A stretch of 64,000 bases of DNA from Candidatus Omnitrophota bacterium (GCA_018062515.1 JAGOSC010000001.1:40765-104764); one strand, 5' to 3'; shown: positions 9,612-34,637, counted from the first letter of the stretch. Notes: a model not told the origin generated them from the letters alone. Translations and numbers: made by a program.

Positions 9612-9639
9612 TTAAATTCCCAAGAAAATAATTAAACTG

Positions 9640-9933: not shown

Positions 9934-11360
<1,427 letters not shown>

Positions 11361-11365
11361 TTAAC

Positions 11366-13751: not shown

Positions 13752-13760
13752 ATTCAGTCC

Positions 13761-14869: not shown

Positions 14870-14873
14870 AGGG

Positions 14874-15092: not shown

Positions 15093-15179
15093 AAAAATAT
15101 CCTTTCCTTTAACTTTTTTCTTAATTTGAATTCAATTATAACAACACATCACCCGTTGTAAATAAAGCAATTACAAAAA

Positions 15180-16230: not shown

Positions 16231-16235
16231 CGCGG

Positions 16236-16433: not shown

Positions 16434-16446
16434 GGCGAATACGAAC

Positions 16447-17499: not shown

Positions 17500-17590
17500 T
17501 AAAATATTTTCTTAAACGTTAATTTACTGCGAGTATAGCAAAATCTATTTTGACAATCAATGTATTTACCGGAAATATCATAAGTCATTT

Positions 17591-18625: not shown

Positions 18626-18805
18626 AAAAAAAGTTTAAGTAAAATTTCGAAATCCTAAATACTAAATTCGAAACAATACCTAAAATCCAAATGTTTTAAT
18701 TTTCTAAACTTTCTTTGCGTTATTATTTTTTCAAAAATTCGAAATTGTTTCGGAATTCGACTTTCGATATTCGAGATTAACTGGTTTATTTTCTGTCGAA
18801 CAATA

Positions 18806-19846
18806 TTATTTTAATTTGGAAATAAAATCAGCGATTTTGAAAACGAGCTGTTTCGAGTCTTCCCAACCGAGGCAAGGATCCGTAATCGATTTCCCGAAGA
18901 CTCCCCCATCCACATCTTGAGAACCTTCTTCGAGATAACTTTCGATCATAAGACCTTTAACAATTTTATTAATTTGTTGGGCTCGTTCCATGCTTTGTAA
19001 AACTTCCATGGCGACACGAGGCTGTTCGCTGAACTGCTTTCCGCAATTGGCATGGCTGACGTCGACGATGATGGCGGGATTGGCAAAACCTTTTTTAAGA
19101 TACATTTCGGTTAATCGATTTAAATCTTCATAATGGAAATTGGGAATATTTTGTCCGAATTGATTAAACGCCCCCCGCAAAATAGCATGCGCATAAGAAT
19201 TCCCCGGCGTCTTTACTTCCCACCCCTTATAAATAAAAGAATGCGGGGCTTGTGCGGCTTGAATTGAATTAAGAAGAACATTTAAGTCTCCGCTCGTCGG
19301 GTTTTTCATCCCGATGGGAATATCGAGCCCGCTGACGGTCAAACGATGTTGTTGATTCTCGACGGACCTGGCTCCGATAGCAACATAAGTTAATAGGTCT
19401 TCAAGATAAGGATAATTTCCCGGATATAGCATTTCATCAGCGGCGGTTAAATGCGTTTCTTGAAGAACACGAATATGCATACGGCGAATGGCTTTCAAAC
19501 CCTCAACAATATTCGGCTCTTGTTTCGGATTGGGCTGATGCGCCATACCTTTGTAACCAACGCCGGTGGTCCGCGGTTTGTTCGTATAAATTCTTGGAAC
19601 GAGCATCAATATATCTTTAACTTCATCATTTAATTTTGCTAATCGTGAAACATATTCACAAACAGCATCTTCATTATCGGCGGAACACGGCCCGATAATC
19701 AGCATAAATTTTTTACTCTTTCCAGTAAGAATATCAATTGCCTCTTGATCTCGATTGGCTTTGACTTTCTTTAAGTCTTCTTTTACGGGCATTTCTGAGA
19801 GAATTTCATCGACGGAGGGAATCTTTTGGATATATTTGAAACTCAT
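18806..19846 (-). CDS. aroG: 3-deoxy-7-phosphoheptulonate (DAHP) synthase, class I.
   Basis: 346 aa; IGPCS, KPRTTGVGYKG, GARSVENQQHR, IVDVSHANCGK motifs. Which AroF/G/H isozyme it is cannot be told. Confidence 0.8.
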   Translation of the reverse strand: MSFKYIQKIPSVDEILSEMPVKEDLKKVKANRDQEAIDILTGKSKKFMLIIGPCSADNEDAVCEYVSRLAKLNDEVKDILMLVPRIYTNKPRTTGVGYKGMAHQPNPKQEPNIVEGLKAIRRMHIRVLQETHLTAADEMLYPGNYPYLEDLLTYVAIGARSVENQQHRLTVSGLDIPIGMKNPTSGDLNVLLNSIQAAQAPHSFIYKGWEVKTPGNSYAHAILRGAFNQFGQNIPNFHYEDLNRLTEMYLKKGFANPAIIVDVSHANCGKQFSEQPRVAMEVLQSMERAQQINKIVKGLMIESYLEEGSQDVDGGVFGKSITDPCLGWEDSKQLVFKIADFISKLK

Positions 19847-20002: not shown

Positions 20003-20230
20003 CTATCTTATGCTGGACAATTGATCTTCCGTATTTATAACCGCGCCTAATATGAGTGGTAGATTTGTGATTGGGGTGACGTTGATAATGACCGGCATTA
20101 AACCATCATCAATTTGAATATTCTCAAAATTGTATACCTTATTACCCGCGTCAAGATTATTCCCTTGACCTCTAATTTCTAATTCCAATAAATCAAGGCT
20201 AAAATCAACCCCACCTGTAGGACTCTGCGC
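20003..20230 (-). other. Family C-terminal conserved domain of about 70 aa (P1 copy). The same domain ends P2 (34746-34990), P3 (38425-38700) and P4 (54757-55000).
   Basis: Four-way alignment by eye gives GG(I/V)D(F/L)NPxLLDL(E/Q)IxGxG - 20-30 aa - NIxIxxGxxP(V/I)IINxTPxTNxPxLLG, then a short acidic/polar tail. I do not recognise the domain. Confidence 0.7.
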
Positions 20231-23200
20231 AGCTCCAGATTTACTTTGTGAAAGGTCATTTGTCGTCGAAGCATTAGAAAAACCATTCTTTAAAGCGGGT
20301 TGTCTATTTATTATGTCCCTTTTTCCATTTTCAAATTTTCGGCTGAAATCTTTAAAATCTTCCGGAAACAATTGCGATACCATTTCAATACCTTCACTGA
20401 CCGTCATATTAGAAACTGCATTCTCAATATACTTCTTTCCGGTAATTTCCGTCCACTCTTTCGACGCCTCAACAAAGACATTTAATAATGGCCGCCCTGT
20501 CAACATAGCGCCTTTAAGGACCGGCTTTGCCGCGGGATATAATTTAGCCCATTTACTTTCCTTCATGGACAAATCGATATAAGCCGTCATCATTCTTTCT
20601 GCCATAGAAACAGAAATCAAACTTCCGACTACATCTTTTATCTCCGCGTCTTGCTTCTTGATCAATTCATTAATATTGTCTTCTAATATTTGTGGGCCGT
20701 AAATTTTGACTAACGTTAGCGCATCTTTTCTGAGCTTCATATCTTGAAATTTTATTTTTCCCATCAGACTCTCCGTCATCTTATAAACTGCTGGCTGCCA
20801 TAAGGAACTCAGGAAATAACGGTTTGTCTTTTCATAAAAATTCTTTTTTAAAATTTGTCTAAAATCCTGTTCCTGCTCATTGGATTCATCCCTCTCAATG
20901 TCCTCAACCACAATATATTTCGCCTGTTCTTGAGCGGCACGTACAGTATCTTCGTCGCTCAAGCTAATATACGACCCGATCGTTTGCAAAGTTTCCATGC
21001 CATTTGCCCAGTCAGTTGGAAAAAGATACATGGCCTGTGTAAAAGCCTTCAAGAAGGTTGAAAAATTCTTTGAAATGTGAGAATTTTTCACTTCAGATAC
21101 AGCTCTCATACTGATCATATTCATCGTCATTTTAAGATCAAACCCCTTATCTAAAACCTCCTGTATGCTCTCCAATGATATGCTCGTCATTTTCGATGAA
21201 GCGCTGTCAGTATTTATAAAAATAGTATCAATCCCTGTCTTTATAAGATCTTTTTCTCTTAATAAAAGCCCTTTAAATAAAACCTTGGCACCTTCGCTCT
21301 GTTTCTTATTTAATGTCCCAACGTTCCCTCTATCAATCAATACCAAGCCACCATCCGGGGTAATCATTACATTAGCCTGATGTAGGTCAGCATGGAAAAC
21401 TCCGTCGACAAATATATTGTGCAACAATAATTGACGTAATAATGAACGTAATTTATCGTAATCAAATTTCAATAGCTTTTCTGATAAACCGTTTAACTCT
21501 GTTTCAGAAAAGCCGGCTTTCTTAAGACCTAAAATAATATGAGCTTGCTTAGAGTCAAGCTTCACTAATTCACTATAAATACGCTTGGCTTCTAGAGGTG
21601 AATACCCCGCCTTTGTCACATCTTCAATAGAAACAGGGTTTTGATTAGGCGCAAGATTTAAAATAGGAATACCCTGAATTTCCTGTTCAACAATCAAAGA
21701 CTTGGTTGCGTAAAAAATCTTCGGATGAATCAAATGTACACCTGCTTCTTTTTGTAAATCTTCCGACCATGAATAATCTAAATCAGTAAGCATATCGGAA
21801 AATTTAACCTCATTCATAAAATCCATCTCAAGAGTGACCCACTCTTTTACCGTTTGGACTAAATCACCCAAGTTAATAGCTTCTCCTCTATATACGTCAC
21901 CTTGAAGATCTTCCGAGACGGATTCAAGTGTTGTAAAATCTGTATCTAAGGTTACTTCCATATCCGGACGTCTAATTTTATAGACAACCGGAACGCCAGC
22001 CTCTTCACGTTTTATCTTATATTGATTTGCTTTTGCGACAATATACGCCACCAGCCCGCTATTCATAATATCTTTACTTTGAAACAATGCCGATAACTGT
22101 GATCTTATTTCATTAGCCTCAGCCTCACTCTTAGCATTTTTGAGCACTAATTGGGATAATAGTTCAATATCCAACCATTTTCCTCTATTTACCTGCTTGA
22201 TCGATGCTACACCGACGGGGTTGTCCATTTCTTGAACAAAGATGTCACTGAACGGTATTTCATTCTCTAAAACAGAAAAACTCGCTATTTTTGTAATTTC
22301 TGGTGCGTTATTTCTTAAAGATCCCAGGTTAGAGCGCATACGTTTATCCGGAACTAAAGTTTCATTTTCCGATAAATATTGAGATACTTTAATACCGACG
22401 GAACCCAATACACCCAGAAAAACAGCTAATCGTTCTCCGACGCTGGTCTTTTCAAAATTCCCCTTAGCGCGTAATTGAGCTAAAGCCTTAATGACATGAA
22501 CCCGTCGATAAGCGGGAAATTTTTTCATAACAACCAAGAAAACTTTTTGTAGAAGAAGTCTCGCCTCACTTTCAAGACCGGGCATATTCTCCGGAAAAAT
22601 AAATATGAATGTCTTTTCCAAAAAATCCGACATAATTCGTACATCATTTTCATCTTGCGGATCCAAAACTCCATTATCCCCCAACATAAACCCTTCGATA
22701 AATTTATCCCGCATGGTTGACGGAAGCAGCTTCACATCACTTGGCAACGTTGTAAAATCTATATTTAATTTCGTTTCAGCATCCACGACAAACTTCGGTT
22801 TTTCCTGAGCCCCGACAACCCATAATAAAATATCCTTTCGCTCGTCCATTCTCGCCGCCCCAAAAAGATGCAGAACGGTTTCTGAAATAAAATCGTGCGT
22901 TCTCAAATCTTTATTCGGCGACAGCAAATTATTAACGTATAGCTCTTTAGTAATGTATGCCACCTCTTCTAAGTGCTTGACATATTTATTGGCGATCTGC
23001 ATTAACAAATCATCTCTGAGTATGCTGGGTTCGGGCATAAATTTTGTTAAGGCGTCAATATTGTCGGTTAGACCCAATTGCGTATTTTCGGGTAATTGTT
23101 TCCATAACATGTAAGCTGTTGCACCATAACGAGACGTTTTTTGGGGTGACAATAATAAAGGAATCATTGTTTGATAGAAATCCAGTAATTCATATATTCT

Positions 23201-26200
23201 TTCTGGTGCTATTTCTATCTGTTGATTTAATTTCTCCAAGCGCCCCACATCATCATCCATTTCTCCCAAAAGAGTCCACATATCCTGCATATCTGTTTCT
23301 TTCCCGGACACTTGACGGGCTAATTTTACCAAAGCTGGTAAATCAGCAATAATTTCAGGAAATACATCGGTTTCCCACATATCAATAACACCGTCTTTAA
23401 TGAGCGATTTATGAGGCATTGACGTTGTTAACCAGTTCAACCTTTCTGGGAGCGGCTTATAATCGCCATACACATATCCTTCGCCATGAATTTTTATATG
23501 CTCGTTTATGAGTCTCGTATAAACCGAAGAATTCTTAAAAAACTTTGCCATTATTTTCCGGTAGGGCACTTTCTCCCCACTCGTATGGTCCTTCAGAAAA
23601 CCGATTGGATCGTTGATAATTTGGTTACCAACATTCGGATTTTGCAATAATGGGACTACTTCTAAAAAATTACCTTGTAAATTATTTTTGATTATGTAAT
23701 TTTCCCATACCGTATCCAGTGTTGCGTTTGGAATAGCGACACCAAGTAAATTTTCTTTAATCTGCGCATATGAAATTTTACTTACATCATCTTTTTCAAA
23801 TTTAAAGTTCAGGCTTGTACTAGCAGAAATCACTCCGTCTTTGTTCTGAGAATAAGAAACCCTTAGCTCCATAAGATCATCCAGCCTATCCATACTATTC
23901 TTTTCCATCCATTTCGGATCACCCAATTTCTTAAACAGAATCAATGTCATTAAATTGGCAAAAAAATCATTGTATCCGGATAGTGAAAAATCTTCACCCC
24001 TATATTCAACTGTTGTATTAAGCGCCACATATTGTAATCTCTTTTTCAAAAGCTGCTTCAATTGATCGATGGATAAATTCGTTAAACTGGTTAGAAAAAT
24101 AGATTGATGATCATATTGATTATCATTCCAACCAAAATTATGAAGCGCGAATCGAGATATAATGGTCTTGAATGATCCTTTACCTTCTGCCTCAGGCATA
24201 ATACTCGTCTTACCTGATTTAAAATCGGGCGTCCCCTCGTCCTTTGAAACCCCGCGTGATTGATACATGTACACTCTTAAAGGTGTTGCAGCACTTAAGG
24301 TGGTCAAGGCCGAATAAATTGTTTCATCGACATAATTCTGATCACTCATTTTTCCAGACTCTTCCATCTTTTCACGCAACAAAGCTAAATAAACCTCGCC
24401 TGATTTTTCCGAAGCTTGAAATGTTTTTGACGTTTGACTAAAAAGGTATTCAAGCAGTGTACTTTGTAAATTCTTTAGATCTGAAATAGGCGCATCGTTA
24501 TCTTGATCTTTCACTGCCTTGAGATATTGCCTATAGATTACATCAGTAACCAATTTTTCGGTTAACTTAAGGGCGTCATTTTTGGAAAACATGCCTAAGA
24601 ACCATACAGCCACTTCTTGGGGATTTTGTTTAAACGAGCTGATAAAAAATTTAGTCAAACGTAAATTGACGTCCGACTCTAAAAATACACTTTCAAATAT
24701 TCTTCGACGCTGATCATAGTCAAGCCTATCTTTCATCCAAGAAAAAAGTTCAGTAATTGAAGCGTTTTCTGTAACAGAAACCTTTATCATCGATGCAACC
24801 TCATCAAAATTCTTATCCAAATATTCAGAAAGAGCCCAGTCCGGCAACTCTGATAAGGCTTTAAAAGATTTAATCTGCTTTTTATCCGGCATATTGTAGT
24901 CTAATCCGGTTTCATTTTGAAACGTGTCTGGCACATGCGCTATTCTTTCTAAGCGAGGCGAACTTATATCTTCTGTAGTATTTAGTTGGCTTGCCACCCA
25001 TAGGTCAGGGTCATTTTTCAGTAAAGAATCAATCGCATCATTATTTCTACCCAACTCAATATCAAAATATTTTTTCAACCTTTGACGCGCTATATTTAAT
25101 GCTTCTGACTTCGAATGTTCTCTTAGTAAAAGGTTATAATATTTTAAAAAAATAGTATCGAGATCCTGCTGTGACCCTCGAGTATGTAAATCAACACCTG
25201 GAAAAGAGCCATCTAAATAACGACTATTGATGTTTTTTATCGGCCTTTTTAAAATATACTGAAGAAGGATAATATTTTGAAGATTTTTTCGGGTATCCGC
25301 GGATTGAATATCGCGATATGAGGGATTTTGTAAATAAATGGAATTGCTTTTTTGTCGTAACTTTGCCTGAACATCCGTGGTTGGAACCTTAACATTCACG
25401 GACGGTTGTTGATCAATATATTTGGCGTAGAAAAAGGCAGAAATTAATTTCTTCGGATCTTTTATTGCCTTTTCAAAAATTGCTTCCGCTACGTAAGCTT
25501 TTTTTCCTTGCGGTAATGGCACCTTATTCCCTAAAATGTCAAGTCTTCCCGCATCTTTTGCATCTGTAAACATCGGGATCAATTCTTCAACTTCATTCAA
25601 GGGAAGCAAAAAATTATCAAAATCAGCGTCACTGAGGCTATTTTGTAGAGAAGTAATGGAATTTAATTTATTTAATAAATCCTTTCCGGAAGCAGATCTT
25701 CTCGTATCTCCACCCTTTTCTTTCGATTTTTCATAATCTCTTATGTAAGTTTCAACATCACCCTTTAAGTCTTTTAAAAAATCTCCATAAAAATCAGAAT
25801 CCTTACGTTCTGATACTTTGATTGTCTCATTATCTTGCCCGAATTCATAAATGGCAGCAGCACTTCTCATATCAGAATAATCAATTTTTTTATTATATAC
25901 ACTTATATCAAGCCTGCGTGTCATTGCTTCGTGAACCGCCTGTACATAAACGTTACGCAAAAAAGAAGTTTTTAAATCTTTTTCTTTAACTAAAGCTTTT
26001 AAGAAATTCATGCGCCTTCGCGTAACAAGCATTCCCGTTAATTCATCTAAAGCTGTGACGCTTTCTGCATTCTGTATCTGATCTAATAAATCTTGGTCGC
26101 TCGCATCCATAAAAAGTCGAAAATCAACGTCTTGACTTTTTATTTCTCCTTCTCCTGCCATATTTACTCGTGGAGCCTTGATATTTGTAAAAATATTTGT

Positions 26201-28264
26201 TTTTTGTTCATAAATTAATTGAGATAATTTATGTTTCCTGAGGCTTATGTAGGGATGCGAATCTAATATATTTTCGGCTTGGCTGGATTGTTGCATATAT
26301 TCCAGAAATCTCATAGCGTCAATGGCTCCTAGTACAGAATATCCCGCCTTATTCATCAATTCCAAAGCCACCATGTCTGCATCATATTCACCATTCTTGA
26401 TCATTTGCAACAAATAAGGCAAAGTCTCAGATCCATAAAAATCTCGAATATTAAGGCCGTAATGGGTGGTGTTTTGTATGGAATGGCTTAACTCATGCGC
26501 CATGACAAAGGCAATTGCATCTTCCGTAAGCGGAACGTTCATTTTCCCAGCGATATCATACAAAGCTTCATACAAACCTTTAAAGAAATATACATCCGTA
26601 CGATTACGTATCACAAATGCATTAATCTCATTTGAATCGATAATGCGCAACTCACCCGGTGAATCCTTGGTTTTTACTGTATAAATATCAATGAGGCGAT
26701 CAAATATTGTATGCATTTTTTCAGTAACCATATCGGTGTTTCGCGGTAATATGCCTGTATGTTCCATTTGCTTTTCGATCATAACAATGTTCCGTTCAAA
26801 ATTGGCTTCCACGTCGTCAACTGAGATACCCTGTTTTTTAGCAAGCTCCTCAATTAAAATTTCATCATACGTTTCATTCTTCTCAATTTTATATACAGGC
26901 TGTTTCGGCGTGGTTTCTTTTAGTTTTAAATTTTTGACAGGCTCTATTCTTGCTGCGGTTGTGTTCACATCTTTAGAACCAGTTAAGATCGCTGGATCAT
27001 TTACCGGAGGTAATTCTTCTTCCTGCCCTTCTTCCTCGTTAAATCTTTGTTTCATAAATTCATTAACCGTCTCCGGAGATATTTTTGAACTGATAAATGC
27101 TCCCGCAATGAAATGCCTTTTTGTAGCTTTATTTGTCTTAGCCAATTGTTCCTGGGTCACATTATCCGGCGTCACTGTCTGAAGCGGGACGATAATCTTG
27201 GTCAAAACCATACCGCCGGAAAAATATTTTCTGGGAATGATTTCCTGTGATACCGCGTCATATTCATCTTTGATATAATTATAAACGCCTTGTTTAAATG
27301 CTTCTAAATATTGCGCGTAAATTTTTTCTTTAGCGGAAGGATCATCAATCTCAACACCCCCGATTTTCTTCCGATCTGAAAATTTCTGATTCAATATACT
27401 TTGTTTCAGATTCTGTTTGTACCACTTCGCTAAAATCAATGAGTTATAGACTTGACGTAACTTGGAAAAATTTTTACCTTCGTTCACTTCTTTTTCAATT
27501 TCAGGTAAAATAATTTCCCGTATAACCTCAGATCCCAGTTTACTAGTATTTTGATTTTCTGATTCGCTTCTGCCTTTTAAACTTCTTTCATCGGTTCGGC
27601 TATGTTCCAATGCCACGTAATCTTCTTCCAACATAACCTTTAAATGGCTTTCAATAACATAGACAATATCGCCATTTTGATAAACTACGGCCTTTTCGGG
27701 AACTATCCAAACTTTATTAAATGTGTTAACAGGAACTTCAGTTGTTCCATATTCTTCCTGCGCACGTTGATAAATCTTCTTCCAAAATGCTTGTCCCAAG
27801 GCCTCTTCCGGATAAATTAATGACGCCGTCAATTGCTTTAAAATATAATCCTGGGCTAATAAATCGCGGCCCATTTCTGTCATACCAAATTCATTGGGTA
27901 CAATCCGATCCTTTTCATAGGGAGATAAATTCACCCATAGATCATCTTCTGGAATGGTTAATGAAGCCAAAAAATATTTAATTAACTTATTGGCCTCTTC
28001 TTTTAAGCGGTCGGGATTTAAGTCAACATCTCCGCTATCTAAAATGAAATCAAAATGAAAAGGATTATTAACCGCTATTTTCATACCGGTCAACATCGGA
28101 GGAATAAAGGCAGAAGTACGGGTAATCATCATACCCGGGAGAGGTAAATTAAGAACACTTTGCGCATAACTTGGCTGAGGCGGGACTACAAATGTCACAG
28201 CCAAAATAAGGCTTAGACAGGAAGAGAAAATTTTGTATAAGAAATGGTTTTTAAGCCGGGTCAT
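20003..28264 (-). CDS. Giant secreted protein P1 (2753 aa): signal peptide, family N-terminal domain, M48-type metallopeptidase domain, long helical region, UbiB/ABC1-type atypical kinase domain, family C-terminal domain.
   Basis: Uninterrupted 8.3-kb ORF. N-terminal signal sequence (LSLILAVTFVVPPQPSYAQS). HELSH...EYDAD (M48). ASIKQVNRG ... VYKIRRP ... EMDFMNE ... FHADLHQANVMITPDGGLVLIDRG (UbiB). C-terminus GGVDFSLDLLELEIRGQG...PVIINVTPITNLPLILG. Confidence 0.9.
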   Translation of the reverse strand: MTRLKNHFLYKIFSSCLSLILAVTFVVPPQPSYAQSVLNLPLPGMMITRTSAFIPPMLTGMKIAVNNPFHFDFILDSGDVDLNPDRLKEEANKLIKYFLASLTIPEDDLWVNLSPYEKDRIVPNEFGMTEMGRDLLAQDYILKQLTASLIYPEEALGQAFWKKIYQRAQEEYGTTEVPVNTFNKVWIVPEKAVVYQNGDIVYVIESHLKVMLEEDYVALEHSRTDERSLKGRSESENQNTSKLGSEVIREIILPEIEKEVNEGKNFSKLRQVYNSLILAKWYKQNLKQSILNQKFSDRKKIGGVEIDDPSAKEKIYAQYLEAFKQGVYNYIKDEYDAVSQEIIPRKYFSGGMVLTKIIVPLQTVTPDNVTQEQLAKTNKATKRHFIAGAFISSKISPETVNEFMKQRFNEEEGQEEELPPVNDPAILTGSKDVNTTAARIEPVKNLKLKETTPKQPVYKIEKNETYDEILIEELAKKQGISVDDVEANFERNIVMIEKQMEHTGILPRNTDMVTEKMHTIFDRLIDIYTVKTKDSPGELRIIDSNEINAFVIRNRTDVYFFKGLYEALYDIAGKMNVPLTEDAIAFVMAHELSHSIQNTTHYGLNIRDFYGSETLPYLLQMIKNGEYDADMVALELMNKAGYSVLGAIDAMRFLEYMQQSSQAENILDSHPYISLRKHKLSQLIYEQKTNIFTNIKAPRVNMAGEGEIKSQDVDFRLFMDASDQDLLDQIQNAESVTALDELTGMLVTRRRMNFLKALVKEKDLKTSFLRNVYVQAVHEAMTRRLDISVYNKKIDYSDMRSAAAIYEFGQDNETIKVSERKDSDFYGDFLKDLKGDVETYIRDYEKSKEKGGDTRRSASGKDLLNKLNSITSLQNSLSDADFDNFLLPLNEVEELIPMFTDAKDAGRLDILGNKVPLPQGKKAYVAEAIFEKAIKDPKKLISAFFYAKYIDQQPSVNVKVPTTDVQAKLRQKSNSIYLQNPSYRDIQSADTRKNLQNIILLQYILKRPIKNINSRYLDGSFPGVDLHTRGSQQDLDTIFLKYYNLLLREHSKSEALNIARQRLKKYFDIELGRNNDAIDSLLKNDPDLWVASQLNTTEDISSPRLERIAHVPDTFQNETGLDYNMPDKKQIKSFKALSELPDWALSEYLDKNFDEVASMIKVSVTENASITELFSWMKDRLDYDQRRRIFESVFLESDVNLRLTKFFISSFKQNPQEVAVWFLGMFSKNDALKLTEKLVTDVIYRQYLKAVKDQDNDAPISDLKNLQSTLLEYLFSQTSKTFQASEKSGEVYLALLREKMEESGKMSDQNYVDETIYSALTTLSAATPLRVYMYQSRGVSKDEGTPDFKSGKTSIMPEAEGKGSFKTIISRFALHNFGWNDNQYDHQSIFLTSLTNLSIDQLKQLLKKRLQYVALNTTVEYRGEDFSLSGYNDFFANLMTLILFKKLGDPKWMEKNSMDRLDDLMELRVSYSQNKDGVISASTSLNFKFEKDDVSKISYAQIKENLLGVAIPNATLDTVWENYIIKNNLQGNFLEVVPLLQNPNVGNQIINDPIGFLKDHTSGEKVPYRKIMAKFFKNSSVYTRLINEHIKIHGEGYVYGDYKPLPERLNWLTTSMPHKSLIKDGVIDMWETDVFPEIIADLPALVKLARQVSGKETDMQDMWTLLGEMDDDVGRLEKLNQQIEIAPERIYELLDFYQTMIPLLLSPQKTSRYGATAYMLWKQLPENTQLGLTDNIDALTKFMPEPSILRDDLLMQIANKYVKHLEEVAYITKELYVNNLLSPNKDLRTHDFISETVLHLFGAARMDERKDILLWVVGAQEKPKFVVDAETKLNIDFTTLPSDVKLLPSTMRDKFIEGFMLGDNGVLDPQDENDVRIMSDFLEKTFIFIFPENMPGLESEARLLLQKVFLVVMKKFPAYRRVHVIKALAQLRAKGNFEKTSVGERLAVFLGVLGSVGIKVSQYLSENETLVPDKRMRSNLGSLRNNAPEITKIASFSVLENEIPFSDIFVQEMDNPVGVASIKQVNRGKWLDIELLSQLVLKNAKSEAEANEIRSQLSALFQSKDIMNSGLVAYIVAKANQYKIKREEAGVPVVYKIRRPDMEVTLDTDFTTLESVSEDLQGDVYRGEAINLGDLVQTVKEWVTLEMDFMNEVKFSDMLTDLDYSWSEDLQKEAGVHLIHPKIFYATKSLIVEQEIQGIPILNLAPNQNPVSIEDVTKAGYSPLEAKRIYSELVKLDSKQAHIILGLKKAGFSETELNGLSEKLLKFDYDKLRSLLRQLLLHNIFVDGVFHADLHQANVMITPDGGLVLIDRGNVGTLNKKQSEGAKVLFKGLLLREKDLIKTGIDTIFINTDSASSKMTSISLESIQEVLDKGFDLKMTMNMISMRAVSEVKNSHISKNFSTFLKAFTQAMYLFPTDWANGMETLQTIGSYISLSDEDTVRAAQEQAKYIVVEDIERDESNEQEQDFRQILKKNFYEKTNRYFLSSLWQPAVYKMTESLMGKIKFQDMKLRKDALTLVKIYGPQILEDNINELIKKQDAEIKDVVGSLISVSMAERMMTAYIDLSMKESKWAKLYPAAKPVLKGAMLTGRPLLNVFVEASKEWTEITGKKYIENAVSNMTVSEGIEMVSQLFPEDFKDFSRKFENGKRDIINRQPALKNGFSNASTTNDLSQSKSGAAQSPTGGVDFSLDLLELEIRGQGNNLDAGNKVYNFENIQIDDGLMPVIINVTPITNLPLILGAVINTEDQLSSIR
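21030..22250 (-). other. UbiB/ABC1/ADCK-type atypical protein-kinase-like domain inside P1.
   Basis: Ordered family motifs: PVGVASIKQVNRG (A-S-I-x-Q-V-H-like), VVYKIRRP (VAVKVQRP-like), EMDFMNEVKF (E-x-D-F salt-bridge Glu), VHLIHPKIFY...LIVEQEIQG, and FHADLHQANVMI...LIDRG (F-H-A-D-P-H-P-G-N ... D-F-G equivalents). About 60 aa are inserted after the first motif. Confidence 0.6.
26290..26790 (-). other. M48-family (HtpX/BepA/Ste24-like) Zn-metallopeptidase domain inside P1.
   Basis: AFVMAHELSHSIQ (HExxH at 26483-26497) followed about 50 aa later by KNGEYDADMVALELMNKAGY, the M48 third-ligand E-x-x-x-(E/D)-A-D motif. Confidence 0.6.
27060..28264 (-). other. Family N-terminal conserved domain (signal peptide plus about 330 aa), P1 copy. 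Also at 37280-38357 (P2) and 49250-50334 (P3).
   Basis: Shared blocks: LNLP.PG, NPL.F.F, LIKYFLA.LT.P...LWVNLSPYEKD(R/K)(I/M)IP.EFG.TEMGRDLLAQDY.LKQ, YGTTEIPV.TFNK.WIVPE.A.VY, SHLKVML..DY.AL, NEGE.F..LRQ..NS.ILA.W(Y/F)K.NL, PR.YFSGG. Confidence 0.7.
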
Positions 28265-29772: not shown

Positions 29773-30969
29773 TCACCACCGATAAAACCTTGCCGTTGTG
29801 CCGGGTTTAATTACTTTTGTACCCGACGGAATCTCAATAAATCCGTCGGATAAAGCTAAAGAAGCAAAATCACCCGAACCTTTAAATATTTGCGGGCGAG
29901 CTGTCAATATTGCGTCTTTTGTCTTTTCCAATTTAACCGGACAGAAAAAAGTTAATGGCGTGTCCGGTGTAAATTCTTCATTCAATTGAACAAATTCCTC
30001 AGCCGGTTCAAGACCTAAGGCTCTTTGTAAACTAGGGATGACGTATCGGTATGTTCCCATCTGCGTTGAGACCGGATTTCCCGGTAAAGCAAATACCGGT
30101 TTTCCGTCGGAAGAAATTCCAAACCAAAAAGGTTTTCCGGGCTTTTGCTGAACTTTGTGAAACAAGACTTTTACTTTTAATTCCTTCATCGCTTGCGGAA
30201 TAAGATCAAATTTACCCATCGATACTCCGCCCGTCAAAACTAATACATCATAGCGTTCAATAATCGCGCCGATTTGTCGAATGAGTACTTTTAAATTATC
30301 TTTAAAATGAAATAAAGCTGTGTCAAATAATTGAGTTTTTTCCAAAGCGGCCTGAATAAAATAGGAATTTGATTTACGAATCTGATAAGGCTCAACGGGA
30401 ACATCCAAATCGACGAGTTCATCACCACTTGAAATAATGGCAACACTGGGTTTCGCGCTGACTTTAACTTGCGCCGCACCGACGGCAGCGACGGTGGCAA
30501 TTTGAACGGGCCCCAATATATTCCCTTTTGGTATTAATATTTCTCCCTTCTTATGATCAGAGCCTTTACTGCGGATAAACTGTCCCTTTTTTAATGCCAA
30601 GCCATCCTTAACCAATGCCTTTCCTTCTTGAATCGTGACATCTTCAATAGGAATAACCGTATCACATCCCTCGGACAAAACCGCACCCGTCATGATTTCC
30701 GTGCACGAATCAGCAAATTTTAACGATAAGGCTGGAATTCCCGCCGACTGCGTTCCTTCGACGAGAAATTTACGGTTTCCTTTTTTATAAGATTCAATTC
30801 GAATTGCTAAACCGTCCATGAGCGATTTATCAAACGGCGGCATATCACGATCGGCTTTAATATTTTCTATTAAGACCGCGCCGTAGGATTTTAATAATGG
30901 ACGCTCCACGATGGGAAATGGTTTGGTGGCTTTTAAAATAATTTGATCAGCTTCTTGAATACTAATCAT
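29773..30969 (-). CDS. moeA: Molybdopterin molybdenumtransferase MoeA.
   Basis: 398 aa; MoeA N-terminal, linker, MoCF-binding (GGVSMGKFD) and C-terminal domains. Confidence 0.8.
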   Translation of the reverse strand: MISIQEADQIILKATKPFPIVERPLLKSYGAVLIENIKADRDMPPFDKSLMDGLAIRIESYKKGNRKFLVEGTQSAGIPALSLKFADSCTEIMTGAVLSEGCDTVIPIEDVTIQEGKALVKDGLALKKGQFIRSKGSDHKKGEILIPKGNILGPVQIATVAAVGAAQVKVSAKPSVAIISSGDELVDLDVPVEPYQIRKSNSYFIQAALEKTQLFDTALFHFKDNLKVLIRQIGAIIERYDVLVLTGGVSMGKFDLIPQAMKELKVKVLFHKVQQKPGKPFWFGISSDGKPVFALPGNPVSTQMGTYRYVIPSLQRALGLEPAEEFVQLNEEFTPDTPLTFFCPVKLEKTKDAILTARPQIFKGSGDFASLALSDGFIEIPSGTKVIKPGTTARFYRW

Positions 30970-32867
30970 ACCTTTAACCTTTTTTTAGCGGCTGGATAAG
31001 CGACAGTCAAAAATAATAATTGAGCCAATAAGTAAATTAAAAGATTTGTCGCCAGTCCGGACGTGAAACCATATGAATGTAAACCAATACTCAATAAGTT
31101 TACGCCGAACCACGCCCACATCACGACGATAATTCCTAAAATACTCCCCACCGCTAAACCGAGTGGCCCGATTATTTTGGCGATCTTGGCATGAAATAAC
31201 ATGGCCGTCCAAAGAATAATCATCAAAGCTCCGTTCTCTTTCGGATCCCATCCCCAAAACCGTCCCCAGGATTGATCCGCCCATATTCCGCCGAGATTGG
31301 TTCCTAAAAACGCGAATGTGAGACCAAACCCTAATGTTCCGATTAAAACATTGTAAGTCGATCGTAATAATTCTTTATCTTTCGATTTAAAAATAGCCTG
31401 AAGCATATAGACGTGTCCGACAATACCGGCCACACAGGTACCGGCATAGCCGATCGTGATACTCGTTACATGCGTTGACAACCAAAAATTAGAATTTAAA
31501 ACAGCGACGAGCATTTGCATTGTATCGCCTTCAGCCGCGAATTTTTCAGAAATACTTAAGAAAATGTATCCAGATATCGCCGCGACGGCAATACCCAGCC
31601 AATTTTTAGTCATTCGCTCAATAATCAAGCCAACGATCACGCTGATAAGGCCAACAAAAATAAATGTTTCAAATAAATTCGATACAGGCGGGCGCTGCAG
31701 GATTGTTATCCGCATCATCAATCCAATCAGATGACATAAGAATCCGATCCACAGAAAAATCCAAGCTGTTCGATAAACCCAACGATTCGAAAATATTAAT
31801 CCAAAAATAAAAATAATAAACGTTAACAAATAAATAATTTTAGCCAGCAAAAATAAGTTTGACTGATTATAAAGCAATTCCAAATTGGCCAGCCCGATTC
31901 TTTTATCGTAACTGTCGTCGGAACGTGCTTTCAGCAAACCGCGATAAGCTTTAACGTTGAGATCAAAATCAAGCCCTCGTCCATCCCAATAGTCAACCAT
32001 CATTTTCTGAAAAGAAATTAATTCTTTGCGTCCGGAAGCATCCCGCAAGCCCGTCGTCATAATGTCCCACGGACTATACCAATTTTCATCGCCTTTAGTG
32101 TAAGACGGAATAATTTGGAGAGGCATTCCTTTATAGATCATCGACCATTTCAGTAAATTCGCGGCTAACACGACAACTTCCTGCTGTTGTGAAGACCATT
32201 TCGACTGATCCAAGCGCTGCAGAGGAACCGTCAATTTTTGCAAAACATCGGCATTAAGGGCAATATCTAAATAACTGAACACATCCGCCCGTTCCCCAAG
32301 CCCCATCATGTTTTTCAGCTCGGCATCGGTCACGGTAAAATCAGGATGAGATAAAACAAAGGCAAAACTAATCGATAAATTCGAATACAATTTAATATTT
32401 TCATAAACACGGATGAGCTCCGCCTCGACGATATCACGTTCTTTACTATCAATTTCACTCGCCGCATGGGCTAAGCGCTGTAATGTCTCAAACTTTTCTT
32501 CCAGTTGAGAAAACGTATAGCGACGATGTTTATCCGGTTCAATTCCTAATGATTCGACAATCTGCGGGTTATTGATAAGAAAAATTTGATTTTCCCGGGC
32601 ACGGCCGGGATCAAACAAAACCATGGTGAGCCAGTTGATCGCCGGTTTTTTATTGAACGTACCTCGTCCGGAAAACTGTACTAATATGCTGCGCGCGTAC
32701 GTATCCAAAGGTTTAACGCGTCCATGATCTAAAATAAGAATATGCTGAAATTCTTTTAAGGATGATACACCTTTGGCTATGGGGCAAACTTGATCCGCCG
32801 ACCATGATGTGATCGACACAAAAAATATCATCAAAAAATAAAAAAGAATCTGTTTAACTTTTCTCAT
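30966..32867 (-). CDS. ccsA: Cytochrome c-type biogenesis protein CcsA/ResC (System II heme-handling protein), long form with a large N-terminal periplasmic domain.
   Basis: 633 aa; signal peptide, about 330 aa soluble region, then eight TM helices carrying the Trp-rich WWD motif FWGWDPKENGALM and conserved His residues. Confidence 0.8.
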   Translation of the reverse strand: MRKVKQILFYFLMIFFVSITSWSADQVCPIAKGVSSLKEFQHILILDHGRVKPLDTYARSILVQFSGRGTFNKKPAINWLTMVLFDPGRARENQIFLINNPQIVESLGIEPDKHRRYTFSQLEEKFETLQRLAHAASEIDSKERDIVEAELIRVYENIKLYSNLSISFAFVLSHPDFTVTDAELKNMMGLGERADVFSYLDIALNADVLQKLTVPLQRLDQSKWSSQQQEVVVLAANLLKWSMIYKGMPLQIIPSYTKGDENWYSPWDIMTTGLRDASGRKELISFQKMMVDYWDGRGLDFDLNVKAYRGLLKARSDDSYDKRIGLANLELLYNQSNLFLLAKIIYLLTFIIFIFGLIFSNRWVYRTAWIFLWIGFLCHLIGLMMRITILQRPPVSNLFETFIFVGLISVIVGLIIERMTKNWLGIAVAAISGYIFLSISEKFAAEGDTMQMLVAVLNSNFWLSTHVTSITIGYAGTCVAGIVGHVYMLQAIFKSKDKELLRSTYNVLIGTLGFGLTFAFLGTNLGGIWADQSWGRFWGWDPKENGALMIILWTAMLFHAKIAKIIGPLGLAVGSILGIIVVMWAWFGVNLLSIGLHSYGFTSGLATNLLIYLLAQLLFLTVAYPAAKKRLKV

Positions 32868-33991
32868 TTTTTCTTCCGTTTAAAAGCCATCATAAGAAAA
32901 TGAATGGCCAGGCCGGTAAATGTCAATAAACTGGAGATGTACGGTAAAAGCCGCCCAGAATTTCGTACAACCGCTAATGTCGAGCGCATATTTCCAGATG
33001 CGTCGACGGAATACGAAGCTTGATAAAATGTATAATTTTTATAACGATACGGATGATTCATATAAATTTCAGCATCACGTTTGGCTCCGCCATGCTCAAT
33101 CGTGACATAACTTTTATAGCTTCGCGCAATTTCCGTCCCAGGATGTTTTTCCATTTCAAATTTTTTTAAAATAACGGTGATGGGCAAAGGATAACGTTTA
33201 CGTTGTACCTGAAGATTTACACTTTTACCGTCGATCTCAATCGTCGTCGGGCGCGACTCTTTACCAAAAAGAAGGACACTGTCTTTTTTCTGTCCTTGCC
33301 CGGTGACATCTATAACTATTCCCGGAAAATTTTTTTCAGGTTCTTTATTGAGATCTGATTTTCTTAACTCATGAATGCCCGATACGTTCTTGATGGTGTT
33401 TTGCGCCTCATTACCCACGTATGCCTCGGCATTTTGGAAATAAGATTTAACAGCTGCCTCGACTCCTAAATCAGCAAACGACAATTGTTCGCCCGATTTT
33501 AATCCTTTCAAATCAAACGCGTATACTTTTTTAAATTCAGGTTTACTCTCCAGCCAGACGGCAACTTCCCAATAATGGTAAGCCACCCCGACATTGCTTC
33601 CCTGTCCTTCACTTAATGTCACGTTCGACTCCTCAACCATATGCAAAGTCACAAAAGCGGAGACAAAATAAGTAAGTAATCCCAAATGAATGACCAAAAT
33701 CCCAATGTGTGACCAGCGGTACACAAATCTAGTTATGGAAACAGCGCAGAGATTGATAAATAAAACCCAAAGAACTAGTTGAGCGCCGGGAAATGGCAGG
33801 AAATTAAAGACAAGGAAATACCAGGAATTGAAAAATTGTTGTTGAGCCTCATACAAGCCTTGATTAACTTGGGCAACGGTGCCCCAAAAAGTTAAAATGA
33901 ATAAGAGTAAAAGACAAACGACGGTTATCTTGATCGACGCTATTGACTTTAAAACGGAGGATTTCTTTAAACGTTCAAATAAATTATTCAT
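32864..33991 (-). CDS. ccsB: ResB/CcsB-like cytochrome c biogenesis protein (short form).
   Basis: 375 aa; N-terminal TM, periplasmic domain and C-terminal TM, as in ResB; 4-bp overlap with ccsA. Confidence 0.6.
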   Translation of the reverse strand: MNNLFERLKKSSVLKSIASIKITVVCLLLLFILTFWGTVAQVNQGLYEAQQQFFNSWYFLVFNFLPFPGAQLVLWVLFINLCAVSITRFVYRWSHIGILVIHLGLLTYFVSAFVTLHMVEESNVTLSEGQGSNVGVAYHYWEVAVWLESKPEFKKVYAFDLKGLKSGEQLSFADLGVEAAVKSYFQNAEAYVGNEAQNTIKNVSGIHELRKSDLNKEPEKNFPGIVIDVTGQGQKKDSVLLFGKESRPTTIEIDGKSVNLQVQRKRYPLPITVILKKFEMEKHPGTEIARSYKSYVTIEHGGAKRDAEIYMNHPYRYKNYTFYQASYSVDASGNMRSTLAVVRNSGRLLPYISSLLTFTGLAIHFLMMAFKRKKK

Positions 33992-34637
33992 TCGTTAATC
34001 TTAATGACGTAAGCAAGCCCATAAATTTTTCATCGTTTAAGTTTATGGCTTCTAACGTACCCGTTAATTTAATGAATATGGTCTTCTCATCCGATTCGAT
34101 GACGCCGGCCATAATACTCGACTCTTGGTTATCTTTAGATGAGGAGAGCGGCCGAAAATCGATCAGGCGAATTTTAAGTCCGCTTTGTGATGCAATTTCC
34201 TTTTGAGACGACATAAAATTCTCAAACTCTTCCGTCGATAAATCGAAAGAAAGTTGACCTAACCAGCGTTGGATATTCGCCTCAAGCCCACCCGATGCTC
34301 CGCTCAAGGAAACAATACTGCATTCAATAGCATTCTCACCCGTCGAGGTAAACGTCGCCATGCGCATTCCGCTTCCTTTCTGCTCCGTCCATCCGTTGGG
34401 AACTGTCCAGCTCAAATCAGCGTTTGCCATTGAATTCGTGAGCATTTCCTGCATAGACGAATCTTGGGATTGAAAATCCATACCTCGATTCATCATCATT
34501 CCTTCATGAGGATCTTTCACGTTTGAAGGTTGAGGATTAATCGTCACCTCTTCGTAAGTGCGGATCGTACGATTCTGTTCACACGAATAGGCAGACAGTA
34601 TAGTTATAGAAACTAATATTATTATTTTTGATTTCAT
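33984..34637 (-). CDS. Secreted or lipoprotein-like hypothetical protein.
   Basis: 217 aa; signal peptide MKSKIIILVSITILSAYSC; no recognisable motifs; 8-bp overlap with ccsB. Confidence 0.45.
   Translation of the reverse strand: MKSKIIILVSITILSAYSCEQNRTIRTYEEVTINPQPSNVKDPHEGMMMNRGMDFQSQDSSMQEMLTNSMANADLSWTVPNGWTEQKGSGMRMATFTSTGENAIECSIVSLSGASGGLEANIQRWLGQLSFDLSTEEFENFMSSQKEIASQSGLKIRLIDFRPLSSSKDNQESSIMAGVIESDEKTIFIKLTGTLEAINLNDEKFMGLLTSLRLTNE

What the first reader, a model, noticed from the sequence alone, without database searches (positions are those of the whole stretch)
26290..26790. Bona fide M48-type zinc-metallopeptidase domain embedded in giant protein P1
FVMAHELSHS (HExxH) followed by KNGEYDADMVALELM reproduces the M48 (HtpX/BepA/Oma1/Ste24) zinc-ligand arrangement, including the distal Glu. 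M48 enzymes are normally small membrane or periplasmic proteases. Here the domain is fused inside a 2753-aa secreted protein that also carries a kinase-like domain. A giant surface-located protease-kinase fusion is unusual and could act on host or prey envelope proteins.
Basis: partly seen in the sequence, partly recalled or inferred. Interest (0 to 1): 0.55.

Follow-up and report, generated by a model that had tools for sequence, protein, structure and literature searches.

The report
M48 protease domain in Omnitrophota giant
The flagged stretch is a genuine zinc protease domain of the M48 family with every catalytic and self-inhibiting residue intact, and it always travels with an ABC1/UbiB kinase-like domain about 1,700 residues downstream, a pairing conserved in giant proteins of several ultra-small bacteria and archaea but apparently not yet described.

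Summary
ORF 20003..28264 (-) encodes a 2,753-aa protein, P1. Residues ~505-690 are a real M48 metallopeptidase domain:
- Pfam PF01435 scores 49 bits against a cut-off of 20.
- A family profile matches M48 crystal structures 3C37 (E 3e-22) and BepA (E 2e-14).
- The AlphaFold model (pLDDT 87) best matches BepA.

P1 carries NAF, H590-E-x-x-H594, E626 and H670-P-x4-R676. The last is the M48 autoinhibitory plug. These residues are invariant in relatives only 20-26% identical.

- NCBI already names this protein an M48 metalloprotease.
- The protease-kinase pairing is not a one-off. Of the 101 best M48-profile matches of at least 1,500 aa, 81 also carry an ABC1 catalytic loop, at a roughly constant spacing.
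- These include ~1,800-aa proteins with no signal peptide in genomes labelled Peregrinibacteria, Uhrbacteria and Woesearchaeota.

In Omnitrophota this unit sits between a signal peptide plus a conserved N-terminal module and a conserved C-terminal module. Other giants with unrelated cargo share both modules. Export is plausible. Surface location and action on prey envelopes are untested.

I read it as a latent, BepA-like protease coupled to an ABC1 ATPase/kinase. It is a new variant of a known kind, of moderate interest.

The parts
20003..28264 (-). Gene for giant protein P1 (2,753 aa plus stop)
   Evidence: ORF list and translation. It is 100% identical over 99% of its length to NCBI 'MAG: M48 family metalloprotease [Candidatus Omnitrophica bacterium]', P0001.
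28160..28264 (-). Predicted Sec-type signal peptide, aa 1-35: basic n-region MTRLKNH, hydrophobic core aa 8-30, then SYA|QS
   Evidence: This is one of only two hydrophobic segments in P1. A small-x-A followed by Q/E, then LxLPxPG, recurs in 87 of 126 proteins that carry the N-terminal module. The assignment is heuristic; no SignalP-type tool was available.
27194..28159 (-). Conserved N-terminal module ('N-cap'), aa ~36-357, shared by many Omnitrophota giant proteins
26195..26752 (-). M48 zinc-metallopeptidase domain, aa ~505-690
   Evidence: Pfam PF01435 49.3 bits. Profile A1 against PDB: 3c37_A E 2.6e-22 across the whole domain, BepA E 2e-14. AF2 pLDDT 87.1, pTM 0.86. Foldseek top matches are BepA 6ait/6sar and 3c37.
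26615..26623 (-). N548-A-F550, the conserved M48 beta-strand motif upstream of the active-site helix
   Evidence: The Ala is invariant in alignment A1. It aligns with 'vNAFa' of 3C37 and BepA.
26483..26497 (-). H590-E591-L-S-H594: two zinc ligands and the catalytic Glu
   Evidence: Invariant in A1 and A3. Aligned with HExxH of 3C37 and with BepA H136/E137/H140.
26375..26392 (-). G625-E626-Y-D-A-D630: E626 is the predicted third zinc ligand, on the next helix
   Evidence: E and D are invariant in A1. E626 aligns with the first E of BepA 'NEQEAD', which is E201.
26237..26257 (-). H670-P671-Y-I-S-L-R676: the HPx4R active-site plug (fourth, autoinhibitory zinc ligand in BepA)
   Evidence: H, P and R are invariant in A1 and A3. 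The motif aligns with BepA T-H246-P247...R252. It lies outside the finding's coordinates.
23213..26194 (-). Long linker, aa ~691-1684, with no recognisable domain; poorly conserved
   Evidence: No Pfam hit. No PDB sequence match for aa 701-1701. Distant relatives align with P1 only in the M48 and ABC1 blocks.
21023..23212 (-). Conserved block of pre-ABC1 region plus ABC1/UbiB kinase-like domain, aa ~1685-2414
   Evidence: BLAST blocks shared with ~1,800-aa M48-ABC1 proteins. Pfam ABC1 72 bits at aa 2089-2339. NCBIfam UbiB 102 bits, below its equivalog cut-off. PDB ABC1 proteins 5yjz and 7cy2 match.
21326..21394 (-). ABC1 catalytic loop and metal-binding motif, H2291-A-D-L-H-Q-A-N ... I-D-R-G2313
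   Evidence: Regex match and conservation across the family. Aligned to 'HGDAHPGN...IDFG' of 5yjz.
20006..20272 (-). Conserved C-terminal module ('C-cap'), aa ~2665-2753: GGVDFSLDLLELEIRG...MPVIINVTPITNLPLILG
   Evidence: Shared with window giants g1203, g3969 and g3061 at 38-49% identity. Never found without the N-cap among 260 proteins. It contains the second hydrophobic stretch, aa 2725-2743. No Pfam or NCBIfam match.

Best explanation
Residues ~505-690 of P1 are a catalytically complete, soluble-type (BepA / LoiP / 3C37-like) M48 zinc metalloprotease.

Predicted active site:
- Zinc would be held by H590, H594 and E626.
- E591 would be the catalytic base.
- H670, in the HPx4R plug, would occupy the fourth coordination site and keep the enzyme latent until the plug is displaced, as shown for BepA.

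The domain is not free-standing. It is the N-terminal half of an ancient two-enzyme unit: M48, then ~1,500-1,750 residues of mostly unrecognisable linker, then an ABC1/UbiB atypical kinase/ATPase domain. This unit recurs with similar spacing in giant proteins of Omnitrophota and in proteins from genomes labelled Patescibacteria (CPR) and DPANN.

By the gene-fusion ('Rosetta stone') argument the two activities work together. Most likely, ATP- or lipid-dependent changes in the ABC1 domain at a membrane or lipid surface are coupled to regulated proteolysis.

In Omnitrophota the unit has been inserted into the phylum's standard carrier: a Sec signal peptide plus a ~320-aa N-terminal module, and a ~60-90-aa C-terminal module. 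P1 is therefore probably exported from the cytoplasm.

Shown: domain identity, motif completeness and conservation, the M48-ABC1 linkage, and the shared caps. Inferred: activity, autoinhibition, functional coupling and export. Unknown: substrates and final location.
For: Domain identity:
- Pfam M48 is well above its gathering score.
- The family profile hits 3c37_A at E 2.6e-22 over the whole domain and BepA at E 2e-14, with HExxH, Glu and HP...R in register.
- The AF2 model has pLDDT 87.1 and shows a three-strand sheet, the active-site helix and the Glu helix. Its best PDB matches are BepA and 3C37, at E 3e-5 and probability 1.00.

Conservation:
- Ten invariant columns (A of NAF, G, H, E, H, E, D, H, P, R) persist across sequences only 20-26% identical.
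- The HExxH...ExxxD...HP motif is present in 33 of the 120 homologues listed, including nearly all whose precomputed Pfam list includes PF01435.
- The M48-specific signature of PMC7950410 is matched once in the window and in 1 of 20,000 shuffles.

Linkage to ABC1:
- 94 retrieved proteins have both the M48 motif and the ABC1 catalytic loop, usually 1,450-1,780 aa apart and 1,701 aa apart in P1.
- 81 of the 101 best M48-profile matches of at least 1,500 aa carry the ABC1 loop, and 65 of those lack the Omnitrophota N-cap.
- Pfam confirms M48 plus ABC1 in ~1,800-1,900-aa proteins.
- Such single ORFs occur in genomes labelled Peregrinibacteria, Uhrbacteria and Woesearchaeota, among others.

Independent association: M48 protease PGM48/sll1280 shares plastoglobule and cyanoglobule lipid droplets with ABC1K kinases.

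Carrier and export: caps and signal peptide.
Against: - There are no biochemical data of any kind.
- Model coordinates could not be inspected, so zinc-site geometry is inferred from alignment only.
- The Pfam match comes as two partial stretches, not one full-length match.
- The HExxH-to-Glu spacing is 31 residues, about half that of BepA.
- Localisation is internally awkward. An exported protein would leave the ABC1 domain without ATP, and the cap-less homologues have no signal peptide and look cytoplasmic.
- Gene neighbourhood gives no support for any pathway. The respiratory-chain context in this window is not conserved around orthologues.
- Taxon labels of the metagenome-assembled genomes may be unreliable.
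- Co-occurrence in one polypeptide does not prove mechanistic coupling.
Confidence: 0.7

Rival explanations
1. One reading: P1 is displayed on the cell surface or secreted. Its M48 domain attacks envelope proteins of a host or prey cell, with the kinase-like domain as a second effector activity.
For: A conserved Sec-type signal peptide with an AxA-like cleavage site. Omnitrophota are inferred or shown to be predatory or host-dependent, and their giant proteins have been proposed to act on target-cell surfaces. If the protein were delivered into a host cytoplasm, the ATP requirement of ABC1 would be met.
Against: P1 has no adhesin, carbohydrate-binding, dockerin or known surface-anchor domain. 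The same M48-ABC1 unit occurs without a signal peptide or any hydrophobic segment in CPR-labelled genomes, and without the Omnitrophota caps in DPANN-labelled ones, so its core function does not need export. The caps are shared with cargo such as glycolytic enzymes, receiver domains and radical-SAM enzymes, which are not obvious surface weapons. There is no conserved secretion-system neighbourhood here or around orthologues.
Confidence: 0.15
2. The M48 domain is a processing protease for giant polyproteins. It would cut P1 itself (for example, freeing the ABC1 half or removing the caps) or other capped giants into working pieces.
For: It is embedded in a giant multi-domain chain, and at least three other capped giants are encoded in the same window. 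Self-cleavage by embedded C39/S8 peptidase domains has been proposed for Omnitrophota giants. BepA shows autoproteolysis when its plug is weakened.
Against: The unit is conserved in ~1,800-aa cap-less proteins, so any cap-removal role cannot be its ancestral function. Most capped giants in the phylum lack an M48 domain. No conserved cleavage motif was looked for or seen. M48 enzymes characterised so far act in trans on membrane or misfolded proteins.
Confidence: 0.15
3. The domain is a catalytically dead relic that now serves only as a structural or binding module in the scaffold.
For: Many giant proteins carry degenerate domains. The Pfam match is partial. The HExxH-to-Glu spacing is unusually short.
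Against: All zinc ligands, the catalytic Glu, and the plug His-Pro and Arg are invariant across relatives that have otherwise diverged to 20-26% identity. That is the signature of selection on catalysis.
Confidence: 0.05

Closest known systems
BepA (YfgC) of E. coli and the Geobacter M48 peptidase 3C37: soluble/periplasmic M48 metalloproteases
   Same: Best sequence-profile and fold matches. The core is the same: NAF strand, HExxH helix, Glu ligand on the following helix, and the HPx4R plug that supplies a fourth, inhibitory zinc ligand. No transmembrane helices lie within the domain.
   Different: P1 has no TPR domain (BepA) and no detectable BAM-related context. Its HExxH-to-Glu spacing is about 30 residues shorter. 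The domain sits at residue ~500 of a 2,753-aa chain and is tied to an ABC1 domain.
PGM48 (Arabidopsis AT3G27110) / Synechocystis sll1280 together with ABC1K kinases on plastoglobules and cyanoglobules
   Same: A small soluble-type M48 protease and several ABC1/UbiB-family proteins reside on the same lipid-droplet surface and are co-expressed. This is the same pair of activities that is fused in P1.
   Different: There they are separate gene products in photosynthetic organisms. No specific sequence affinity of P1 to PGM48 was tested or shown. The closest small M48 relatives found here come from Chitinivibrionales, Vulcanimicrobiota and Omnitrophota MAGs. A direct PGM48-ABC1K3 interaction is my recollection of Bhuiyan et al. 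2016, which I could not read.
UbiB / Coq8 (ADCK3) / mycobacterial ABC1 protein MABP-1 (PDB 5yjz, 7cy2): ABC1 atypical kinase-like ATPases
   Same: The P1 C-terminal block has the family's KxGQ-like motif (IKVSQ), Ala-rich loop (ASIKQV), Lys (YKIRRP), catalytic loop HADLHQAN and IDRG. Pfam ABC1 is above cut-off.
   Different: P1 scores far below the NCBIfam UbiB equivalog cut-off (102 vs 488 bits), so it is not an orthologue of UbiB. It has no C-terminal membrane anchor of the UbiB type and is fused to a protease.
HtpX, Ste24/ZMPSTE24, Oma1: membrane-embedded M48 proteases
   Same: Same Pfam family and catalytic motifs. Weak matches to HtpX and Ste24 fragments.
   Different: Those enzymes are built around transmembrane helices. 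P1's M48 domain has none.
Omnitrophota giant proteins ('Archaeovorins', Dockerin-type) of West-Roberts et al. 2023; Seymour et al. 2023; Nielsen & Lui 2026
   Same: Same phylum. Very long ORFs carry a signal peptide and mix ordinary enzyme domains. A pilZ gene lies near a giant gene in this window too.
   Different: Those papers treat proteins longer than 10,000-20,000 aa with many transmembrane helices. None mentions M48, ABC1/UbiB or the N-cap/C-cap pair. P1 is 2,753 aa with no internal transmembrane helix.

Membership tests
Peptidase family M48 (Pfam PF01435) | Score above the curated Pfam gathering threshold | tested here: met
   49.3 bits against a cut-off of 20.3, E 6.7e-13, in two stretches.
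Peptidase family M48 (Pfam PF01435) | HExxH zinc-binding/catalytic motif on the active-site helix | tested here: met
   H590-E-L-S-H594. It is invariant in relatives and aligned with HExxH of 3C37 and BepA. It lies in helix 117-133 of the model.
Peptidase family M48 (Pfam PF01435) | Third zinc ligand Glu in an E-x-x-(A/S)-D motif on the next helix | tested here: met
   E626-Y-D-A-D630. E and D are invariant, and E626 aligns with BepA E201.
Peptidase family M48 (Pfam PF01435) | HPx4R active-site plug; signature HExxH-x(30,140)-HPx4R (PMC7950410) | tested here: met
   H670-P-Y-I-S-L-R676, 75 residues after H594. H, P and R are invariant. The signature has one match in the window and occurs in 1 of 20,000 shuffles.
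Peptidase family M48 (Pfam PF01435) | M48 / gluzincin-type fold | tested here: met
   AF2 pLDDT 87.1. Foldseek top matches are BepA (6ait, 6sar) and 3c37, at E 3e-5 to 9e-4 and probability 1.00. TM-score normalised to the query is only 0.43-0.54, because the flanking helices do not align.
Peptidase family M48 (Pfam PF01435) | Zinc binding and peptidase activity | not testable with these tools
   This needs purified protein.
BepA subfamily | C-terminal TPR domain following the M48 domain | tested here: not met
   No TPR family hit anywhere in P1 at E <= 1.
Membrane-embedded M48 (HtpX / Ste24 / Oma1 type) | Transmembrane helices flanking or interrupting the protease domain | tested here: not met
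   The only hydrophobic segments in P1 are aa 8-30 and aa 2725-2743 (Kyte-Doolittle scan).
ABC1 / UbiB atypical kinase-like family (Pfam PF03109) | Score above the gathering threshold, plus KxGQ-like motif, Ala-rich loop, Lys, HxDxHxxN loop and DxG | tested here: met
   72 bits against a cut-off of 22.9. Motifs present: IKVSQ, ASIKQV, YKIRRP, HADLHQAN, IDRG.
UbiB proper (NCBIfam TIGR01982 equivalog) | Score above the equivalog cut-off | tested here: not met
   101.9 bits against a cut-off of 487.55.
Known C-terminal sorting signals (T9SS CTD, PEP-CTERM, LPXTG and the like) | Match to the curated NCBIfam/Pfam model of the signal | tested here: not met
   No hit over aa 2665-2753 in Pfam or NCBIfam at E <= 1. 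The tails after the motif are variable and not basic.
Archaeovorin / Dockerin-type Omnitrophota giant proteins | Length over 10-20 kaa, many TM helices, HEAT or dockerin repeats | tested here: not met
   P1 is 2,753 aa, has no internal TM helix, and has no HEAT or dockerin hit.

The most novel reading that the evidence does not exclude
The M48-linker-ABC1 unit is a so-far undescribed, ancient protease-ATPase machine characteristic of ultra-small, host-dependent prokaryotes (Omnitrophota, CPR/Patescibacteria, DPANN). In it, ATP- or lipid-driven motions of the ABC1 domain would release the HPx4R plug and gate proteolysis at a membrane or lipid surface. The fusion would then show that ABC1/UbiB proteins in general work hand in hand with M48 proteases, as their co-residence on plastoglobules and cyanoglobules hints. 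That would give a handle on the long-unclear biochemical role of the ABC1 family. In lipid-auxotrophic episymbionts such a machine could serve membrane remodelling or the acquisition of host membrane material.
Probability: 0.2. Interest if true: 0.8.

Novelty: new variant of a known kind. Interest (0 to 1): 0.55.

Why it matters
M48 proteases and ABC1/UbiB proteins are both ancient, widespread and poorly understood. Substrates are known for only a few M48 enzymes, and whether ABC1 proteins act as kinases or as lipid-handling ATPases is still debated.

A fusion of the two with conserved spacing, found across three groups of ultra-small microbes, is strong comparative evidence that they cooperate. 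It matches their unexplained co-residence on chloroplast and cyanobacterial lipid droplets.

The ~1,800-aa cap-less versions are tractable targets for expression. They would make the coupling directly testable: does ATP or lipid binding unplug the protease?

Separately, the work exposes a phylum-wide 'carrier' in Omnitrophota: a signal peptide plus N-terminal module, and a C-terminal module. It carries very diverse, normally cytoplasmic enzymes. Its destination is unknown, and that bears on how these predatory or parasitic nanobacteria interact with other cells.

If the plain reading holds, this is simply one more annotated M48 domain in an unusual setting.

Tried and rejected
1. Word-indexed homologue search with the 213-aa M48 segment alone returned nothing, not even the identical database protein. 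This is a tool limitation and cost one search.
2. Single-sequence phmmer of the M48 region against PDB was only marginal (3c37, E 0.06). The family profile was needed.
4. The AFDB50 fold library was unavailable, so closeness to PGM48-type proteins could not be tested structurally.
5. Linker aa 701-1701 has no PDB relative.
6. Genomic-context hypothesis, rejected. P1 sits among cytochrome bc, cytochrome c maturation, haem synthesis and ATP synthase genes, which suggested a respiratory quality-control role recalling Oma1/Coq8. Orthologues P0006 and P0002 lie in unrelated neighbourhoods of efflux/polysaccharide export and glycogen genes.
7. Neighbours of the Peregrinibacteria M48-ABC1 gene are unrelated housekeeping genes.
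8. The mixed Omnitrophota/CPR alignment A3 was too divergent for the genome scan. The scan with CPR-type sequences gave only 8 loci.
9. Exact look-up of P0001 on contigs failed.
10. Bhuiyan et al. 2016 (PGM48) is not held.
12. The antisense ORF 26691..27182 (+) has no support as a gene.

Full report
**Observation.** The window holds a 2,753-codon ORF on the minus strand, 20003..28264. FVMAHELSHS is aa 586-595 (26480..26509) and KNGEYDADMVALELM is aa 623-637 (26354..26398). The finding's span 26290..26790 equals aa ~492-659. HExxH occurs only once in the protein.

**Is it an M48 domain?** Every available test says yes.
- Pfam Peptidase_M48 scores 49.3 bits (gathering cut-off 20.3, E 6.7e-13), as two stretches.
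- The single sequence gives only a marginal PDB hit (3c37, E 0.06).
- A profile of 20 homologous regions (alignment A1) hits the Geobacter M48 peptidase 3c37_A at E 2.6e-22 over the whole domain, and E. coli BepA at E ~2e-14.
- In those alignments the NAF strand, HExxH, the Glu motif and a C-terminal His-Pro...Arg all fall in register.
- An AlphaFold2 model of aa 465-714 is confident (pLDDT 87.1, pTM 0.86). It shows a three-stranded sheet, the HExxH helix and the following Glu helix.
- Its best matches among solved structures are BepA (6ait, 6sar) and 3C37. Far weaker matches to selecase, BlaR1 and HtpX follow.

Bryant et al. (PMC7950410) show that BepA's zinc is held by H136, H140, E201 and H246. 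They also show that H246-P247...R252 (HPx4R) forms a mobile 'active-site plug' conserved throughout PF01435, and that HExxH-x(30,140)-HPx4R identifies the family. P1 has H590/H594, E626 and H670-P-Y-I-S-L-R676. The signature occurs once in the six-frame translation of the window and in 1 of 20,000 shuffles of P1.

**Is it likely active?** Across relatives only 20-26% identical to P1 in this region, ten columns are invariant: the Ala of NAF, a Gly, H-E-H, E and D of ExxxD, and H, P, R of the plug. All of these except the Ala and Gly stay invariant when cap-less proteins are added. The motif HExxH...ExxxD...HP is found in 33 of the 120 best full-length homologues. These include nearly all whose precomputed Pfam list includes PF01435. 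Selection has therefore preserved catalytic and regulatory residues while the rest diverged. Activity and BepA-like autoinhibition are inferred, not shown.

**Anatomy of P1.**
- The only hydrophobic segments are aa 8-30 and aa 2725-2743.
- The N-terminus reads as a Sec signal peptide: MTRLKNH, a hydrophobic core, then SYA|QS. A small-x-Ala then Gln/Glu site followed by LxLPxPG recurs in 87 of 126 related N-termini.
- Residues ~36-357 form a module that is 51-56% identical to the N-termini of two other giants in this window, 34746..38357 and 38425..50334.
- The same module is 55-63% identical to more than 100 Omnitrophota giants. Their middles carry phosphoglucomutase, glucose-6-phosphate isomerase, phosphoglycerate kinase, methyltransferases, receiver domains, HEAT repeats, radical-SAM domains and more.
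- This module is always N-terminal.
- The last ~60-90 residues (GGVDF...MPVIINVTPITNLPLILG) are likewise shared, including with the 3,061-aa ORF at 54757..63942.
- Among 260 proteins, this C-terminal module never occurs without the N-terminal one.
- Neither cap matches Pfam, NCBIfam or any PDB sequence. The N-cap model is mediocre and has no structural relative.

Downstream of the M48 domain there is a ~1,000-residue stretch with no recognisable domain. A conserved block at aa ~1685-2414 follows. It contains an ABC1/UbiB atypical kinase-like domain (Pfam 72 bits) and matches PDB ABC1 proteins 5yjz and 7cy2. The KxGQ-like motif, Ala-rich loop, Lys, HADLHQAN and IDRG are all present. It falls far below the UbiB equivalog cut-off.

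**The wider family.** A profile search of 1.84 billion representative proteins gave 29,853 M48 hits at E <= 0.001, of which 86 were at E <= 1e-30. The best hits were overwhelmingly 1,700-7,300 aa long.
- Of the 150 best, 101 are at least 1,500 aa.
- 81 of those 101 also contain an ABC1 catalytic loop, and 65 of the 81 lack the Omnitrophota N-cap.
- Over all proteins retrieved, 94 have both motifs. The HExxH-to-ABC1-loop distance is mostly 1,450-1,780 residues, and 1,701 in P1.
- About 25 are ~1,700-1,900-aa proteins that begin with the M48 domain, end with ABC1 and have no hydrophobic segment at all.
- One of these is NCBI MFC1616099.1 from a 'Patescibacteria group bacterium'. A partial M48 relative, MBN1594396.1, comes from candidate division FCPU426.
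- In species-representative genomes, single ORFs with both domains occur in MAGs labelled Peregrinibacteria (1,908 aa), Uhrbacteria (1,813 aa), 'Gammaproteobacteria' (1,849 aa), 'Methanosarcinales' (at least 4,067 aa) and Woesearchaeota (at least 3,318 aa). None has the Omnitrophota caps.
- P1 aligns to these proteins in exactly two blocks, the M48 domain and aa ~1685-2414.

The M48 domain of P1 is therefore half of an old, conserved two-enzyme unit that Omnitrophota have placed inside their capped carrier. The taxon labels of these MAGs should be treated with caution.

**Mechanism.** Best-supported reading (confidence 0.7): a latent, BepA-like zinc protease whose plug must be displaced for activity, functionally coupled to the ABC1 domain with which it is always fused. 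The coupling rests on the fusion argument and on an independent association. In Arabidopsis plastoglobules and Synechocystis cyanoglobules, the M48 protease PGM48/sll1280 shares a lipid-droplet surface with several ABC1K proteins and is co-expressed with them. How the coupling works is speculation; ATP- or lipid-driven unplugging is one possibility.

The signal peptide suggests export in Omnitrophota. This conflicts with the ATP need of ABC1 and with the cytoplasmic look of the cap-less homologues. The conflict is unresolved. It leaves room for delivery into another cell.

Rivals:
- A self- or trans-processing protease for giant polyproteins (0.15).
- A dead relic (0.05), which the invariant catalytic residues contradict.

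**Context.** All genes in the window lie on the minus strand.
- Around P1: glycerophosphodiester phosphodiesterase, rhodanese, MoeA, ResB/CcsA upstream; DAHP synthase, ferrochelatase and glutamyl-tRNA reductase downstream.
- Further out: cytochrome b/Rieske, a 979-aa multihaem cytochrome c, the F-type ATP synthase operon, more haem genes, and a PilZ gene.

This respiratory setting is tempting in view of Oma1 and Coq8, but it is not conserved around orthologues, so I give it no weight.

**Known versus new.** NCBI already names this exact protein 'M48 family metalloprotease', and close relatives are named 'AarF/UbiB family protein'. The domain's presence is therefore known at the level of automated annotation. 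The papers on Omnitrophota giant proteins do not mention M48, ABC1/UbiB or the cap pair. Full-text searches for the domain combination, or for M48 in CPR, DPANN or Omnitrophota, found nothing relevant.

I file the domain as a true M48 member. It is not of the BepA (no TPR) or membrane-embedded (no TM) subtypes. I rate the whole as a new variant of a known kind. Interest is moderate at 0.55: the domain call is ordinary, but the conserved M48-ABC1 unit in ultra-small prokaryotes and the capped carrier are worth following up.

Noticed in passing
window 20003..28264, 34746..38357, 38425..50334, 54757..63942 (all minus strand): Four giant ORFs in one window share end modules. Three have the same signal peptide plus ~320-aa N-terminal module, at 51-56% identity. 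All four have the same ~60-90-aa C-terminal module (GGIDxNP...PVIINxTPxxNLPxLLG). The same cap pair flanks very diverse, normally cytoplasmic enzyme domains in well over a hundred Omnitrophota proteins. The C-cap was never seen without the N-cap. No known family or fold matches either cap.
   Followed up: partly
window 28196..28264 (P1 aa 1-23): The NCBI protein (P0001, 2,731 aa) starts 22 codons downstream of the window's ATG, at V23. That start would remove the basic n-region and half the hydrophobic core of the signal peptide. Paralogues and orthologues conserve the longer N-terminus, so the deposited start is probably wrong.
   Followed up: partly
window 52949..53311 (-): A 120-aa PilZ-domain gene lies two genes downstream of the 3,061-aa giant ORF. 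West-Roberts et al. 2023 report pilZ genes directly downstream of most Omnitrophota giant genes.
   Followed up: no
window 54757..63942 (-): The 3,061-aa ORF runs off the window end, so its true N-terminus is missing. It carries leucine-rich repeats (aa ~1936-2151) and a Walker-A-like GPSGQGKD near the start of the visible part. Its function was not examined.
   Followed up: no
window 3186..19846 and 29773..34637, 50546..54684 (-): A dense run of respiratory and cofactor genes, all on the minus strand, is interleaved with the giants. It includes a 979-aa multihaem cytochrome c, cytochrome b halves and Rieske protein, the complete F-type ATP synthase operon, GlutR, ferrochelatase, UroD, a HemN-like radical-SAM protein, an amine-oxidase-type (HemY-like) protein, ResB/CcsA and MoeA. 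This organism is therefore not a purely fermentative Omnitrophota type. The context is not conserved around P1 orthologues.
   Followed up: partly
L001 7839..13565; L003 7872..13313; L002, L005, L006: Single ORFs with M48 at the front and ABC1 ~1,500-1,600 residues later occur in genomes labelled Peregrinibacteria, Uhrbacteria, Gammaproteobacteria (MAG), Methanosarcinales (MAG) and Woesearchaeota. They have no caps. The ~1,800-1,900-aa bacterial ORFs (L001-L003) also have no hydrophobic segment, whereas the longer archaeal-labelled ORFs (L005, L006) have internal ones. The archaeal labels may reflect episymbiont contamination of bins and were not verified.
   Followed up: partly
window 26691..27182 (+): A 163-aa ORF lies antisense to the M48 coding region. 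It has no support as a gene and is most likely a by-product of the AT-rich (38.5% GC) sequence.
   Followed up: no
window 8745..9611 (-): A 288-aa HEAT-repeat protein is encoded between the ATP synthase epsilon gene and the Rieske gene. HEAT repeats are the commonest domain in Omnitrophota giant proteins, but here they form a small separate protein.
   Followed up: no
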